IMG/VR virus record: IMGVR_UViG_2660238548_000022
DNA length: 8,402 nt
Reading direction: 5' to 3' (one strand)
Source of the DNA: a virus
Taxonomy: Duplodnaviria; Heunggongvirae; Uroviricota; Caudoviricetes
The position numbers are program-made. Positions 1-3,000 of the stretch are shown one piece after another. Each line of letters begins with the position of its first letter. Positions within the stretch are counted from its first letter, which is position 1.

Positions 1-3000
1 ATGAGCAGGGCAATTCATAGACTTAGCGACACTCTTTTACGAAAATTAAGCGGATCACCAACCACAAAAAACACCTTTTTTAATGATGGTGGCAACCTTA
101 GCGTAAGGCATTCAACCAATGGCCTGTTAACCTGGTATTTCACTTACAGGACCGGAACAGGCAGGAAGGTAGCCCCTGAACGTCTGAGGCTGGGCAATTA
201 TCCCGATCTGAGCCTGAAAGCTGCCAGGGAAAAAGCGGCACAGTGTCGCGCCTGGCTGGCTGAGGGGAAAAATCCGCGCTATGAACTTAATCATGCTGTA
301 CAGGACGCGTTAGCCCCAGTGACGGTTAAGGAAGCGCTCACTTACTGGCTTGAATCGTACGCAAAGGAAAAGCGCACTGACTACGAATCACTGAAAAGCC
401 GGATCAATAAACACATAATTAGCCAGATTGGAGCTATGCCACTGGAAAAATGCGAGCTACGCCACTGGCTGGCCTGTTTTGACCAGCTTGCTAAGCGTAA
501 TCCGGTATCAGCCGGATTTTTGCTACAGGTATGCAAACAGGCGCTTAAGTACTGCCGAAAACGACGATACGCAATCAGCAACGTTCTTGATGATATGGTT
601 GTCGGTGATGTTGGGAAAAAAGCAGAAATAAGCGAGCGCGTACTAACAAACAAGGAGCTTGGGGAATTACTACGCGCCCTTGATGAAAAAATTTACCCAC
701 CGTACTACAGCGCCCTGATTCGCCTCCTGATTGTCTTCGGATGTCGTACCACTGAGCTAAGACGCTCTGAGGTCCAGGAATGGGATTTTAAAGAAATGCT
801 CTGGACCGTGCCGAAAGAACACAGCAAAACGAAGGTAGCAATATTCAGGCCAATACCGGAAGCGATCTTGCCGTTTGTCATGAAGCTGGTGGAGCAGAAC
901 AGGCACACGGGCTTATTGCTCGGAGAACTGAAAGGGCAATCATCCGTATCAGAGTACGGAAGAACGGCACACAGACGCATTAATCAAGCCCCCTGGACGT
1001 TGCACGACATCCGGCACACGTTTACAACGATGCTGAACGATTTAGGCGTGGAACCGCACGTTGTGGAGCAGCTTACCGCGCACCAGTTGCCAGGAATGCA
1101 ACGAGTCTATAATCACTCCCGTTATCTTGATGCAAAACGTGACGCTCTTAATCTATGGGTTGAGCGCCTCGATGTGCTGGCTGGAAATCATGAAAATATT
1201 GTTATGCTGAAGGTGGCCAAATGAAATTACCTAAAAGACTCTATTATCCATTACCTGAAGCGGCAGAAAAGTTAGGCTGTGCAATAAAAGATCTTTATCA
1301 TTACGCATATATAGGCGCTCTTAATATTTCTGTATATATACCAAAAATTGATGCTAAAAAATTCAATTTTTCATTATGTCATTTTATCAATGGTTGTAAT
1401 GAGGAAGAATTAATAAAATATCCTTTCAATGATGAATCTGCTGTTTTTGGAAGTAATTTTACAGTTGGTTTAACTGGTGACACTGAATTTTTAGATAGTG
1501 CCATTATTGGTCCTGTAGGGAATCCTATCAAATGTTATTATGTTAGCAGCTTATCAGGGTTTTATTATACTCCGGCGTATGTTTTTGCTGATGTCGAATT
1601 TAGCATGAGACAATATATAAAATGTTCTCATCTTACGAATAAGTATGGTGATGATAATCTCATGTATGTTTTTTGTAAGGGTGGTTATGAATTTGATGTT
1701 GACTATTTGTGTGTGATGGCTAGTGATTTAGATAATATAAAAAATACGGGAGACTTCCCGAAGATAACAGAAGATAGCCCAAAAGCATCGTCAAAAAGGA
1801 ATGAGGTTATTTACTCTTTAATTAAACTTATTCCAGAAATGGGTGATGTAGACCTGGACACGGAATCATTACCTAAAATAGCAGATTTAATTGATTCTAT
1901 AGCTGCATCCAGAGGGATAGAATTTCCAAAAACACATTGGCAGACATGGCAAAAGTATTTGGGGCGTGAATCTCAACAAAAACGTAAAAAGTGATATCAC
2001 GTGCTGGTAGTGTGATATCACACAAACGGCGTTTTACTACCGCCTAGAATCGTCCTCGTTCGGCAACGTTCGAGGACGTTTTTTTATGAATCAAAATACA
2101 CAATTTCAATCACTATCAGATCGCGTAATCCGTGAGGATGAATGCCGTAAGTTAACAGGAGTGTGCCGCACTACACGCTACGAACTGGAGAAAAAAGGGC
2201 GCTTTCCGTCACGTCTTAATCTGGGCGGTCGTTCTGTAGGGTGGCTGCTGTCCGAGGTTATGGAATGGGTTAAAAGCCGGGATCGCATTAATTCAGGTAA
2301 GGCAGCGTAGGGGGAACATATGACACATAAAACAAAGGCGACCTGTGGCGGTCGCCAATGGGAAAACACTAAACATAAGCCAGAACATCATAGCGATTTG
2401 CTGTCTGGTGGGCAATGTGCTCAGTGTGCTGGCTTGCTGGTGGGCTATTCCTGCTCTTTGGCCTTGCGGCGCTGGCGGCGTTTGATTTCGCCTTTAACGG
2501 CAGTAACTATAAATTGCGCTTTGCTTTCACCTTCATCTAAATTTTTTTCTAAGTCTGCAACAACATCATGCGGGAATCTGGCATTTAACTGTTGCGACTT
2601 ATTATTTGTTGAACCTGTTGCCATTACTGAATCCTCTCTAAGTTGGTGCGATTCAGTATACACAAAAAAAATTCAGAGAAAAGGCTTGAAGTGCGATTCA
2701 CTTGCTGATAGGTTAAAAACAGATGGTGCGATGCACCAAATGACAACGCCCCGCAGTGGTGGCACACATGCAGGGCGTCTAACAACCAACGATAGCAACA
2801 GTATCGAGGTAGCTATGTTAAATCATACCACACACCCGCAAGGGCGGGACTCGCACAACCTGAATAAATACATCTGGCGTTTTATCGCCCTGAGCACGGC
2901 ACAGCCGCGCGTGATTACCATCGAGGCCACCAGCGAACAGGAAGCACGCCAGCAATCCCCAGTTGGCTGCGTGATGGTATTCGCGGCCCGTATTCGTCAG

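What the first reader, a model, noticed from the sequence alone, without database searches (positions are those of the whole stretch)
1991..2088. alpA leader: twin palindromic operators plus a terminator hairpin that sequesters the SD
Two perfect GTGATATCAC palindromes, two helical turns apart, overlap the -35 region of a candidate -10 (TAGAAT, 2045..2050). Immediately downstream, a stem (2050..2058 with 2071..2078) plus T7 ends directly at the alpA ATG, and the SD-like GAGGA lies in the 3' arm. Read-through from int or the cargo gene would therefore terminate and occlude the SD, whereas a transcript starting near 2057 would lack the 5' arm and expose it. That would be a compact insulation and derepression device for the presumed master activator.
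Basis: partly seen in the sequence, partly recalled or inferred. Interest (0 to 1): 0.55.

Follow-up and report, generated by a model that had tools for sequence, protein, structure and literature searches.

The report
Gated leader of satellite activator alpA
Just upstream of the master activator gene of a phage-parasitic island in E. coli lies a conserved RNA hairpin that hides the gene's ribosome-binding site (and here also acts as a transcription terminator), preceded by two conserved palindromic sites that always accompany one uncharacterised neighbouring gene, which together probably keep the island silent until the right signal arrives.

Summary
GTGATATCAC sits at 1991-2000 and 2012-2021, TAGAAT at 2045-2050, an 8-bp stem at 2051-2058/2071-2078, then T7 and the alpA ATG at 2086.

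The window is a Gram-negative phage-inducible chromosomal island (PICI).

The hairpin is under selection as plus-strand RNA. In 24 distinct relatives 96% of cells pair, 8 of 9 pairs show changes on both sides, and G.U outnumbers A.C 16 to 1. The Shine-Dalgarno sequence is always in the 3' arm.

All 15 Enterobacterales alpA loci found blind to the leader have this hairpin. Only about half have the T-run. Occlusion of the ribosome-binding site is therefore the conserved function, and termination is an extra present in this window.

A -10-like hexamer is fixed at the base of the stem. No transcription start is mapped.

The palindromes (consensus GTGAWWTCAC) occur only behind one uncharacterised protein family, the ORF at 1221-1994, which has a winged-helix N-terminus. 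They are absent from the 14 other hairpin-type alpA leaders examined. They are probably that protein's operators. Whether they repress or activate is unknown, and the missing -35 hints at activation.

This is a new variant of a known kind.

The parts
1..1224 (+). Tyrosine integrase (407 aa). It is co-oriented with alpA and is the presumed source of read-through transcription.
   Evidence: Pfam Phage_integrase 1.7e-17 and Arm-DNA-bind_3. Its stop overlaps the next start as ATGA. The same arrangement is seen in all related loci.
1221..1994 (+). ORF257, a member of an uncharacterised family. It has an N-terminal MerR/Xis-type winged helix-turn-helix, a variable beta-rich centre and a conserved three-helix C-terminal domain (...LIKLIPEM...THWQTWQKYLGR). 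It is the candidate protein that binds the palindromes.
1991..2000 (.). Palindrome 1 (P1), GTGATATCAC. It contains the TGA stop of ORF257.
   Evidence: P1 matches GTGAWWTCAC in 22 of 22 family loci and carries 1.95 bits per position, against 0.50 in the spacer.
2012..2021 (.). Palindrome 2 (P2), GTGATATCAC, 21 bp from P1.
   Evidence: P2 is within 2 mismatches in 22 of 22 loci and carries 1.77 bits per position. Variants include the symmetric GCGATATCGC. The distance from the end of P2 to the ATG is 62 nt in 16 of 22 loci (64 in the window).
2045..2050 (+). -10-like hexamer TAGAAT abutting the 5' arm. The predicted start is about 2057-2058.
   Evidence: Among 33 distinct leaders, 64% have A2 and T6 in the hexamer that ends at stem column 2 (mean score +1.55). 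Every other offset gives 18% or less, except stem column 5 (39%, mean score -2.8); most offsets score near -5.5. In the window and in L042 the hexamer ends at stem column 1, one base earlier. No -35 is present. The start is inferred, not mapped.
2051..2058 (+). 5' arm of the hairpin (CGTCCTCG), an anti-SD-like pyrimidine run.
2059..2070 (+). 12-nt loop. CGTTC-N5-CGTTC (2057-2061 and 2067-2071) spans it. In most relatives the loop reads as the complement, AAC...GAA.
   Evidence: The loop is more conserved than the 26 nt upstream of the stem. Its function is unexplained.
2071..2078 (+). 3' arm (CGAGGACG), which contains the Shine-Dalgarno sequence GAGGA (2072-2076).
   Evidence: An SD-like pentamer lies in the 3' arm in 20 of 20 leaders, 9 nt before the ATG in 13 of them (4-9 nt overall).
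2079..2085 (+). T7 tract. Together with the stem it has the form of an intrinsic terminator for int-ORF257 transcripts.
   Evidence: A T-run of at least 6 of 8 is present in only 6 of the 20 leaders.
2086..2310 (+). alpA (74 aa), the island's master activator.
   Evidence: Pfam Phage_AlpA 2e-16. Its role as autoactivating, helper-induced master regulator is taken from PMC6092414.

Best explanation
The 95 nt between ORF257 and alpA form a two-part gate on the island's self-activating master switch.

Part 1, the hairpin. In any transcript that enters from the co-oriented int-ORF257 genes, the stem-loop 2051-2078 pairs the alpA Shine-Dalgarno sequence with an anti-SD-like 5' arm. In this island the T7 tract also makes it an intrinsic terminator. 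Read-through can therefore neither continue efficiently nor be translated into AlpA. alpA's own promoter is proposed to have its -10 (TAGAAT, 2045-2050) at the foot of the stem. Its transcripts would then start at about 2057-2058, lack the 5' arm and carry an open ribosome-binding site. This is the logic by which IS10 protects its transposase gene from outside promoters.

Part 2, the palindromes. P1 and P2 are binding sites for the product of the neighbouring gene ORF257. They would lie at about -61 and -40 of this promoter, which has no -35, and so set whether it fires.

Shown here: the sequence features, the RNA-level selection on the helix, the position-specific -10-like motif, the conservation and symmetry of the palindromes, and their exclusive association with the ORF257 family.

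Inferred: the transcription start, actual termination, which protein binds the palindromes, and whether it represses or activates.
For: Hairpin:
- 24 distinct sequences give 96.3% paired cells, 8 of 9 pairs with changes on both sides, 33 such cells and 0 of 500 shuffles. Slid controls reach only 37-57% (15-sequence set).
- G.U outnumbers A.C 16 to 1 in internal pairs, which points to selection on plus-strand RNA and not on a double-stranded DNA site.
- Stability is -10 to -17.7 kcal/mol, with the SD in the 3' arm in 20 of 20 leaders.
- All 15 Enterobacterales alpA loci retrieved by protein alone have the hairpin.
- It persists behind three kinds of upstream sequence: ORF257, DUF6387 and others.

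Promoter:
- The -10-like hexamer is enriched only at the stem base: 64% there, 18% or less at every other offset except stem column 5 (39%, with a negative mean score).
- L001 and L002, whose upstream sequences are unrelated, both add a -35 at the right distance: TTGCAC-16-TAAGAT and TTGCTT-17-AAAAAT.
- G at the predicted +1 is present in 31 of 33 leaders.
- RNAs starting there are less structured than shuffles, with mean z +1.0 and 26 of 31 above zero. For the window, dG is -4.7 and z +1.97.

Palindromes:
- Information content is 1.95 and 1.77 bits per position in P1 and P2, against 0.5 bits in the spacer and the flank.
- Two variants change symmetrically and remain palindromes: GTGAATTCAC and GCGATATCGC.
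- The P2-to-ATG distance is fixed at 62 nt even when the P1-P2 spacer is 10 or 12 nt.
- They are present in 22 of 22 loci encoding the ORF257 C-terminal domain and absent from all 14 hairpin-type alpA leaders that lack this gene. L002 is one of these, and its AlpA is nearly identical to the window's.
- ORF257 has a winged-helix DNA-binding fold.
- Palindrome-bearing leaders have a significantly poorer -35, mean -3.4 against +0.1, p = 2.5e-4.

Biology:
[quoted passage not shown] Insulation from read-through should therefore be strongly selected (PMC6092414).
Against: - No transcription start has been mapped.
- A second geometry scores as well or better in some loci. Here the -35 is GTGATA inside P2 and the -10 ends 6-9 nt before the stem, for example TATAGT in L038 with a score of 9.2. 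It would put the whole hairpin into every alpA mRNA.
- Six leaders have TTAAAT or TTTAAT at the stem base, which lack the critical A at -11.
- Part of the A-rich stretch could exist simply to pair with the T-run, as in many terminators.
- The loop is more conserved than a passive loop should be, and its closing G-C pair never covaries. The model does not explain this.
- P0020/L044 keeps the N-terminal winged helix but has a different C-terminal domain and no palindromes. Either the C-terminal domain, which has no recognisable DNA-binding fold, does the binding, or the palindromes are merely linked to the 3' end of the gene.
- The sequences compared are related to one another, so the p-values overstate independence.
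Confidence: 0.55

Rival explanations
1. Every alpA transcript starts upstream of the hairpin, for example from a promoter whose -35 is the GTGATA half of P2. The hairpin would then be a leader attenuator and translational lock, to be opened by a trans-acting factor such as a helper-phage or island protein, an sRNA or an RNase.
For: Candidate promoters GTGATA-15..18-(TATAGT / AATACT / TAACGT / CATATT) appear in several loci, and the L038 one scores 9.2. The loop sequence is conserved (AAC..TAA.GAA) and the closing G-C pair is invariant, as if something recognised them. Helper phage is known to be needed for alpA expression.
Against: Hexamers ending 6-9 nt before the stem show no positional enrichment of the -10 pattern (12-18%, mean score about -5), unlike the stem base (64%). 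The loop is present as its complement in the window, L001 and L042, which argues against sequence-specific recognition of the RNA loop. In islands with a strong terminator this design would abort most of the gene's own transcripts.
Confidence: 0.2
2. The hairpin is only the intrinsic terminator of the int-ORF257 operon, and its overlap with the alpA ribosome-binding site is an accident of a compact genome.
For: The window has a textbook terminator, an 8 GC-rich bp followed by T7 at -17.6 kcal/mol, 57 nt after a stop codon.
Against: About half of the relatives keep the hairpin but have no T-run, for example GCCCCA, ATCCAT, TAGATT and CCTATCA. The SD is in the 3' arm in 20 of 20 leaders, usually 9 nt before the ATG. 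The stem-to-ATG distance is 6-7 nt in 16 of the 20 leaders. The helix covaries while the purine-rich SD is kept.
Confidence: 0.08
3. The twin palindromes act as an RNA hairpin in which P1 pairs with P2, for example as a 3' stabiliser or processing site of the ORF257 mRNA, and not as DNA operators.
For: P1 and P2 pair perfectly as RNA in the window, giving a 10-bp stem. In L034, P1 GTGAAATCAC and P2 GTGATTTCAC are exact complements, which is a compensatory pattern.
Against: Symmetric changes within a single site (GCGATATCGC in L035, GTGAATTCAC in Klebsiella) keep each site palindromic but break P1-P2 pairing. In L026 both sites carry GTGAAATC.., which gives A.A mismatches. The spacer varies from 10 to 12 nt while P2 stays fixed relative to the ATG.
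Confidence: 0.1
4. The palindromes are bound by something other than ORF257: AlpA itself (autoactivation), a helper-phage regulator (the unknown inducer) or a host factor.
For: AlpA autoactivates, and a helper factor induces alpA in EcCICFT073. The half-site GGTGATA / TATCACC resembles lambdoid operator half-sites (from my own knowledge, not tested). P0020 keeps the winged helix but lacks the palindromes.
Against: Islands with a nearly identical AlpA (L002) have no palindromes. In the exact-pattern scan of 2.9 million viral contigs, the twin site turned up in this ORF257-alpA context in 8 of 11 hits, and none of the other three looked like a phage operator. The association with the ORF257 C-terminal domain is strict: 22 of 22 loci against 0 of 14.
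Confidence: 0.2
5. The stem-loop is a double-stranded DNA inverted repeat bound by a dimeric protein, for example AlpA acting for autoregulation or excision, and not an RNA structure.
For: GAACG-N5-GAACG repeats with a 10-bp period sit in the loop. EcCICFT073 has six ACAACG repeats at a 10-bp period after int.
Against: The ratio of G.U to A.C is 16 to 1, whereas a DNA palindrome would decay symmetrically. The arm sequences are replaced wholesale while pairing is kept, for example ATCCACCTG/CAGGTGGAT and CTCCTTGCG/CGTAAGGGG.
Confidence: 0.05

Closest known systems
IS10/Tn10 protection from external promoters, and the related IS200 left-end terminator plus SD-sequestering stem-loop
   Same: A mobile element shields a dangerous gene from transcription that enters from outside. 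Read-through RNA folds so that the ribosome-binding site is paired, and the element's own promoter is placed so that its transcript escapes. IS200 adds a terminator against impinging transcription (PMC13181058 citing Davis et al. 1985; PMC4513863).
   Different: The protected gene here is a transcriptional master activator of a phage satellite, not a transposase. The 'outside' transcription comes from the island's own int and accessory gene. In this window one hairpin serves as both terminator and SD trap. No antisense RNA is evident. The start inside the hairpin is predicted, not mapped.
alpA promoter of EcCICFT073, the experimentally studied Gram-negative PICI
   Same: The island type and gene order are the same: int, alpA, an oppositely oriented YlcI/YnfO gene, an Icd-like gene, DUF4222, then primase. 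AlpA is the autoactivating, helper-induced master switch.
   Different: CFT073 has a 365-bp int-alpA gap with no hairpin (z -0.5) and no palindromes. It carries six ACAACG repeats at a 10-bp period instead. Its alpA differs at the N-terminus. In E. coli only 119 of about 498 genomes with related alpA sequence carry the hairpin-type leader.
Canonical intrinsic (Rho-independent) terminator
   Same: The window has a GC-rich 8-bp stem followed at once by T7, downstream of a stop codon.
   Different: The loop is 12 nt, which is long. The terminator ends at a start codon and contains the next gene's SD. The T-run is dispensable across the family.
Tandem regulator sites at about -41.5 and -61.5 (class II plus class I activator geometry, as for CRP/FNR or lambda cI at PRM)
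   Same: There are two dyad sites two helical turns apart. The proximal site replaces a missing -35, and its distance to the -10 is fixed.
   Different: The positions depend on an unmapped start. The half-sites are only 5-6 bp apart (GTGAW|WTCAC), unlike CRP's TGTGA-N6-TCACA. The binding protein is unidentified.
Stl master repressors of Gram-positive PICIs (SaPIs)
   Same: An island-encoded protein next to int has a DNA-binding domain and a highly variable domain, and sites sit in front of the island's induction genes. No equivalent is known for Gram-negative PICIs.
   Different: The gene is co-oriented with, not divergent from, the genes it would regulate. There is no sequence or fold relationship. 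Promoter anatomy suggests activation rather than repression. Most hairpin-type islands lack it.
Pseudomonas aeruginosa AlpA, a Q-like antiterminator
   Same: Only the name, and the presence of a terminator near an alpA-regulated start.
   Different: That protein has its HTH at residues 128-142 and a Q-like fold (PMC9371919). The protein here is a 74-aa Phage_AlpA (MerR/Xis-type) protein. It is not a homologue.

Membership tests
Intrinsic (Rho-independent) terminator | Stable GC-rich stem-loop in the transcript | tested here: met
   8-bp stem with 6 G-C pairs, dG -17.6 kcal/mol, z -4.6.
Intrinsic (Rho-independent) terminator | U-tract directly after the stem | tested here: met
   T7 at 2079-2085. 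In the family, only 6 of 20 leaders have at least 6 T in the first 8 nt.
Intrinsic (Rho-independent) terminator | Actual transcript release at the site | not testable with these tools
   This needs Term-seq or in vitro transcription.
RBS-sequestering insulation against read-through (IS10/IS50/IS200 type) | The Shine-Dalgarno sequence is base-paired in the long transcript | tested here: met
   GAGGA 2072-2076 lies in the 3' arm. An SD-like pentamer is in the 3' arm in 20 of 20 leaders.
RBS-sequestering insulation against read-through (IS10/IS50/IS200 type) | The helix is maintained by selection at the RNA level | tested here: met
   96.3% of cells paired, 33 cells with changes on both sides, 0 of 500 shuffles. 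G.U to A.C is 16 to 1.
RBS-sequestering insulation against read-through (IS10/IS50/IS200 type) | Co-directional transcription enters from upstream | tested here: inconclusive
   int and ORF257 are co-oriented, overlap as ATGA, and have no other terminator-like site on the plus strand before 2051. Their transcription itself has not been measured.
RBS-sequestering insulation against read-through (IS10/IS50/IS200 type) | The gene's own transcript starts inside the hairpin and lacks the 5' arm | tested here: inconclusive
   A position-specific -10-like hexamer sits at the stem base (64%, against 18% or less at all but one other offset), and RNA from that start is open. There is no mapped start, and an alternative promoter is possible.
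Operator pair of a dimeric DNA-binding regulator | Dyad symmetry conserved above the flanks, with symmetric substitutions | tested here: met
   1.95 and 1.77 bits per position against about 0.5 in the spacer and flank. GTGAATTCAC and GCGATATCGC are symmetric variants.
Operator pair of a dimeric DNA-binding regulator | Helical phasing of the two sites | tested here: met
   The centre-to-centre distance is 21 bp in 17 of 22 loci, 20 bp in 3 and 22 bp in 2.
Operator pair of a dimeric DNA-binding regulator | A cognate DNA-binding protein is encoded nearby and co-occurs with the sites | tested here: met
   Sites are present in 22 of 22 loci with the ORF257-family C-terminal domain and in 0 of 14 hairpin-type alpA leaders without it. 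A winged-helix fold is predicted. Caveat: P0020 has the winged helix but no sites.
Operator pair of a dimeric DNA-binding regulator | Demonstrated binding and a regulatory effect | not testable with these tools
   This needs EMSA or footprinting and reporter assays.
Gram-negative PICI | int, alpA, primase/replicase, and terS or capsid genes in one orientation, about 8-15 kb, at a fixed chromosomal site | tested here: met
   Pfam and PHROGs hits. The same island, about 9.5 kb, lies between yljB/cspD and clpS in O157:H7 F6321.
Q-like antiterminator system (P. aeruginosa AlpA) | A Q-like protein of about 150 aa or more with a C-terminal HTH that loads at a promoter-proximal pause and reads through a leader terminator | tested here: not met
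   The protein here is 74 aa and matches Pfam Phage_AlpA. The P. aeruginosa protein has its HTH at residues 128-142.
Stl-like PICI master repressor | Divergently transcribed repressor next to int that blocks the island's induction promoter until a phage protein binds it | tested here: inconclusive
   The position next to int, the DNA-binding fold and the variable centre fit. The co-orientation and the -35-less promoter do not. No function has been tested.

The most novel reading that the evidence does not exclude
The ORF257 family would be a phage-sensing transcription factor, and the first dedicated regulator acting upstream of AlpA in Gram-negative PICIs. Its mosaic, fast-diverging central domain would recognise a helper-phage product. 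The protein, bound at the twin GTGAWWTCAC sites at about -61 and -40, would then switch on (or release) a -35-less alpA promoter whose transcripts escape the SD-trapping hairpin. That would answer, for this subfamily of islands, the open question of how helper phages induce Gram-negative PICIs.
Probability: 0.3. Interest if true: 0.75.

Novelty: new variant of a known kind. Interest (0 to 1): 0.55.

Why it matters
How helper phages switch on Gram-negative phage-inducible islands is unresolved. AlpA is known to be the self-activating master switch, but in the literature consulted here (PMC6092414, 2018; later papers found name none) neither the inducer nor any repressor is known.

This analysis shows that a large branch of these islands carries a conserved RNA structure that blocks AlpA translation from upstream transcripts. 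The branch includes all 15 Enterobacterales species loci sampled and 119 E. coli genomes, among them many O157, O145, O103 and O121 strains. The model island EcCICFT073 lacks the structure, which may explain why it was not mentioned in the PICI papers searched here.

The analysis also points to a small, uncharacterised protein family with its own conserved operator pair as a candidate input to the switch.

Both ideas can be tested directly with reporter fusions, 5' end mapping and gel shifts. Both are relevant to engineering PICIs as delivery vehicles with tight OFF states.

Tried and rejected
1. P. aeruginosa AlpA as a model (Q-like antitermination through a leader terminator). Rejected: the protein is unrelated and shares only the name (Pfam).
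2. A known RNA family. Rfam at E <= 1 gave only sub-threshold noise: ctRNA_p42d at 19.9 bits against a gathering score of 50.
3. ORF257 as a known defence, phage or Pfam family. There were no hits in PADLOC, PHROGs or Pfam, none by profile against PDB sequences, none by tblastn in 50,697 phage genomes and none in BFVD folds.
5. A GTDB genome scan with the ORF257 alignment confirmed nothing. The afdb50 fold library was unavailable.
6. A sigma-70 PWM scan to fix the promoter gave no single answer per locus. Only the position-anchored analysis across leaders was informative.
7. An upstream in-frame ATG at stem columns 1-3, 36 nt before the alpA ATG, as a longer AlpA. Rejected: L028 has an in-frame TAG, and the window, L033, L036 and L042 lack the ATG.
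8. A further copy of the palindrome or of the GTTC-N6-GTTC loop repeat elsewhere in the window, as a sign of a regulon. None was found beyond chance.
9. Public TSS maps. The island was not among the 60 of 66 full-length leader matches listed, and Sakai and EDL933 did not appear, so published O157 TSS data were not pursued.
10. CRP-like site. The half-sites match TGTGA/TCACA, but the spacing is 2 bp, not 6 (read from the sequence, compared with what I know of CRP sites).
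Full report
**What the window is.**
- The 8.4-kb window is a Gram-negative phage-inducible chromosomal island (PICI). It matches the 8,420-bp IMG/VR contig IMGVR_UViG_2534681991_000035, which is probably its source.
- On the plus strand it encodes:
  - a tyrosine integrase (1-1224);
  - an unannotated 257-aa ORF (1221-1994, overlapping int as ATGA);
  - AlpA (2086-2310; Pfam Phage_AlpA, 2e-16);
  - a DUF4222 protein, a D5/P4-type primase, a small terminase and a major capsid protein.
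- A YlcI/YnfO-like gene lies on the minus strand at 2445-2663.
- A 99% identical island of about 9.5 kb sits between cspD/yljB and clpS in E. coli O157:H7 F6321.
- In such islands AlpA is the master activator. It activates its own promoter, it is switched on by an unidentified helper-phage factor, and its over-expression causes uncontrolled island replication that harms the cell. No repressor is known (PMC6092414; PMC11773190).

**Check of the observation.**
- All coordinates are right:
  - GTGATATCAC at 1991-2000, with the ORF's TGA stop inside it, and again at 2012-2021;
  - TAGAAT at 2045-2050;
  - the stem CGTCCTCG (2051-2058) paired with CGAGGACG (2071-2078), and a 12-nt loop;
  - T7 at 2079-2085 and the ATG at 2086;
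  - the Shine-Dalgarno-like GAGGA at 2072-2076, inside the 3' arm.
- The exact 10-mer occurs nowhere else in the window and in none of 200 shuffles.
- The hairpin folds at -17.6 kcal/mol with z = -4.6.
- The built-in terminator scan missed it only because its loop limit is 8 nt.

**The hairpin is a selected RNA structure.**
- BLAST against 5,426 complete E. coli genomes showed sharp breakpoints in homology.
  - 66 genomes share the whole leader.
  - 53 share it only from inside the hairpin onward. These have a different upstream gene (DUF6387) and no palindromes.
  - About 380 more share only alpA codon 11 onward and have a different leader.
- I gathered more leaders in five ways, three of them blind to the leader sequence:
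  - from E. coli genome records that matched the window by BLAST;
  - with an exact scan for the twin palindrome in IMG/VR;
  - with the ORF257 protein family in IMG/VR;
  - with the search for homologous proteins followed by context look-ups;
  - with AlpA protein alone across one genome per GTDB species.
- Every one of the 15 Enterobacterales alpA loci from the AlpA-only scan has the hairpin directly before the ATG.
- On 24 distinct sequences the 9-bp helix pairs in 96.3% of cells. Eight of 9 pairs show changes on both sides (33 cells), no shuffle of 500 reaches the observed values, and registers slid by 1-3 columns pair in only 37-57% of cells (smaller set).
- Whole arms are replaced while pairing is kept. 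Examples are GCTCTCG/CGAGAGC, CTCCTG/CAGGAG, ATCCACCTG/CAGGTGGAT and CTCCTTGCG/CGTAAGGGG.
- Non-Watson-Crick cells are G.U 16 times and A.C once (binomial p = 2.7e-4). That is the signature of selection on the plus-strand RNA and not on a double-stranded palindrome.
- An SD-like pentamer lies in the 3' arm in 20 of 20 leaders, usually 9 nt before the ATG.
- Looser hairpins that also bury the SD precede alpA homologues in Shewanella, Colwellia and Coxiellaceae.

**Terminator or translational trap?**
- In the window the hairpin is the most stable of the family and is followed by T7, so it has the full form of an intrinsic terminator.
- Only 6 of the 20 leaders have at least 6 T in the 8 nt after the stem. 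Others have GCCCCA, ATCCAT, TAGATT or CCTATCA.
- The conserved property is therefore occlusion of the ribosome-binding site. Termination is an addition in some lineages, including this one.

**Where alpA transcription starts.**
- This is the unproven step. Across 33 distinct leaders anchored on the stem, the hexamer ending at stem column 2 carries the two critical -10 bases (A at position 2, T at position 6) in 64% of cases, with a mean -10 score of +1.55.
- Every other offset from -28 to +9 gives at most 18%, except stem column 5 (39%, mean score -2.8); most offsets score near -5.5.
- The consensus is nA(A/G)AAT|GC. The window's TAGAAT and Salmonella's TACAAT are good examples, with the hexamer ending one base earlier, at stem column 1.
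- The motif is also present in leaders that have no T-run, so it is not merely an A-tract paired to U's.
- A start 7 nt downstream falls on the last base of the 5' arm, a G in 31 of 33 leaders.
- In L001 and L002, whose upstream sequences are unrelated, a -35-like hexamer sits at the right distance: TTGCAC-16-TAAGAT and TTGCTT-17-AAAAAT.
- RNAs that begin at that G are less structured than shuffles. The mean z is +1.0, 26 of 31 are above zero, and the window RNA 2057-2130 folds at -4.7 kcal/mol with z = +1.97. Including the 5' arm gives a mean z of -2.6.
IS200 combines a terminator with an SD-sequestering stem-loop in a similar way.
- Against it, a second geometry scores well in some loci. It uses GTGATA of P2 as the -35 and a -10 ending 6-9 nt before the stem, and L038 scores 9.2. 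It shows no positional enrichment across the family.

**The palindromes.**
- In 22 loci that encode the ORF257-family C-terminal domain, P1 matches GTGAWWTCAC in all 22 and P2 is within two mismatches.
- Information content is 1.95 bits per position in P1 and 1.77 in P2, against 0.50 in the spacer and 0.47 in the next 26 nt.
- Two variants change symmetrically and remain palindromes: GTGAATTCAC in Klebsiella and GCGATATCGC in L035. This is what a dimer-binding site predicts, and it breaks P1-P2 pairing at the RNA level.
- The spacer is 11 nt in 17 loci, 10 in 3 and 12 in 2.
- The distance from P2 to the ATG stays at 62 nt in 16 of 22 loci, even when the spacer changes. P2 is therefore positioned relative to the hairpin and promoter.
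- With a start at the end of the 5' arm, P2 would span about -44 to -35 and P1 would centre near -61.
- Palindrome-bearing leaders have a significantly worse -35 than palindrome-less ones (mean -3.4 against +0.1, Mann-Whitney p = 2.5e-4). That is the anatomy of an activator-dependent promoter, although repression by occlusion cannot be excluded.

**Who binds the palindromes?**
- The palindromes are found only behind the ORF257 family. They are absent from all 14 hairpin-type alpA leaders without that gene, including L002, whose AlpA is nearly identical to the window's. AlpA is therefore an unlikely ligand.
- The twin site was not seen in any context resembling a phage operator. In the IMG/VR scan 8 of 11 hits were this ORF257-alpA context.
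- ORF257 belongs to a tiny family of 20 clusters, all named 'hypothetical', from E. coli, Salmonella, Klebsiella, Serratia and Providencia. It has no Pfam, PADLOC or PHROGs match and no homologue in 50,697 phage genomes.
- The centre of the protein is beta-rich, highly variable and mosaic between E. coli alleles.
- The C-terminal three-helix domain is the most conserved part and has no structural match.
- One caveat remains. The most distant member, P0020/L044, keeps the winged helix and the centre but has a different C-terminal domain and no palindromes. Either the C-terminal domain reads the sites, or the sites are simply linked to the 3' end of the gene.

**Comparison with what is known.**
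- The experimentally studied EcCICFT073 has a 365-bp int-alpA gap with no hairpin (z -0.5) and no palindromes. This may explain why neither feature is mentioned in the PICI papers I could search.
- The mechanism proposed for the hairpin is a known kind, seen in IS10 and IS200, in a new setting.
- The operator pair with its private protein family is uncharacterised.
- P. aeruginosa AlpA, a Q-like antiterminator, shares only the name.

**What remains unexplained.**
- The loop is more conserved than the 26 nt upstream of the stem. It carries (C)GAAC-N5-(C)GAAC at a 10-nt period, and it appears as the exact complement (CGTTC-N5-CGTTC) in the window, L001 and L042.
- The closing G-C pair never covaries.
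- Possible explanations are constraints from the start site and initially transcribed sequence, a minimal AlpA binding site (compare the six ACAACG repeats at a 10-bp period after int in CFT073), or inversion of the loop by template switching at a quasi-palindrome. I could not discriminate among them.

**Verdict.**
The SD trap and terminator and the operator-like palindromes are real and conserved.
- The start inside the hairpin has positional support but is unmapped.
- The 'cargo gene' is more likely the cognate regulator than cargo.
- Whether regulation is positive or negative is open.
- Confidence in the combined model is 0.55.

Noticed in passing
window 2057-2071 (loop of the hairpin); L002 2494-2508; L085 7190-7255: The loop carries CGTTC-N5-CGTTC at a 10-nt period. 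Most relatives carry the exact complement, CGAAC-N5-CGAAC, so the loop looks inverted between lineages while the stem is kept. EcCICFT073, which has no hairpin, instead has six ACAACG repeats at an exact 10-bp period just after the int stop. These may be AlpA (Xis-type) binding repeats.
   Followed up: partly
window 2646-2655, 2691-2700, 2726-2735: Three copies of GTGCGATTCA (the third is GTGCGATGCA), spaced 45 and 35 nt apart, run from the 5' end of the minus-strand ylcI/ynfO-like gene into the region upstream of it, ahead of the plus-strand Icd-like region. They look like operator or iteron repeats.
   Followed up: no
window 1221-1994 compared with L005, L006, L008: ORF257 alleles in E. coli are mosaics. 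L006 shares the window's N- and C-termini but has a different centre. L008 shares L005's N-terminus and centre but has the window's C-terminus. This modular shuffling of the central domain is typical of proteins that recognise phage products.
   Followed up: partly
window 2337-2356 (minus strand): A strong terminator-like hairpin, GGCGACCGCCACAGGTCGCC followed by a T-run, lies on the minus strand just past the alpA stop. It would end the convergent ylcI-like transcript before it runs antisense into alpA. alpA itself has no obvious terminator of its own on the plus strand.
   Followed up: no
window 2320-3018 (+) versus 2445-2663 (-): A 232-aa plus-strand ORF starts 10 nt after alpA and overlaps the minus-strand ylcI-like gene. 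RefSeq annotates its counterpart as a hypothetical protein in L006 (CDS 2861-3604). In relatives this slot holds AntA, ORF6N or Bro-like genes placed directly after alpA (L036, L044).
   Followed up: no
L016 2165-2195 (IMGVR_UViG_2588253800_000018): The same twin palindrome, GGTGATATCAC-N11-GGTGATATCACC, occurs once in an unrelated context. There it is followed directly by GCTTTTTATTTTT, so the two copies would form a terminator hairpin. This shows the motif pair can also act as an RNA stem.
   Followed up: no
Stem columns 1-3 in most relatives (e.g. L002 2486-2488); absent in the window: Most leaders have ATG as the first three bases of the 5' arm, exactly 36 nt (in frame) upstream of the alpA ATG. 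An in-frame TAG in L028 and the absence of this ATG in the window, L033, L036 and L042 argue that it is a by-product of the -10-like AAT|G motif and not a longer AlpA.
   Followed up: yes
L001/L003 and L002/L011 (E. coli), upstream of alpA: In 53 E. coli genomes the gene between int and alpA is a DUF6387 protein instead of ORF257. Two unrelated DUF6387 alleles both end in AT-rich spacers with a -35/-10 pair placed at the same position relative to the hairpin.
   Followed up: partly
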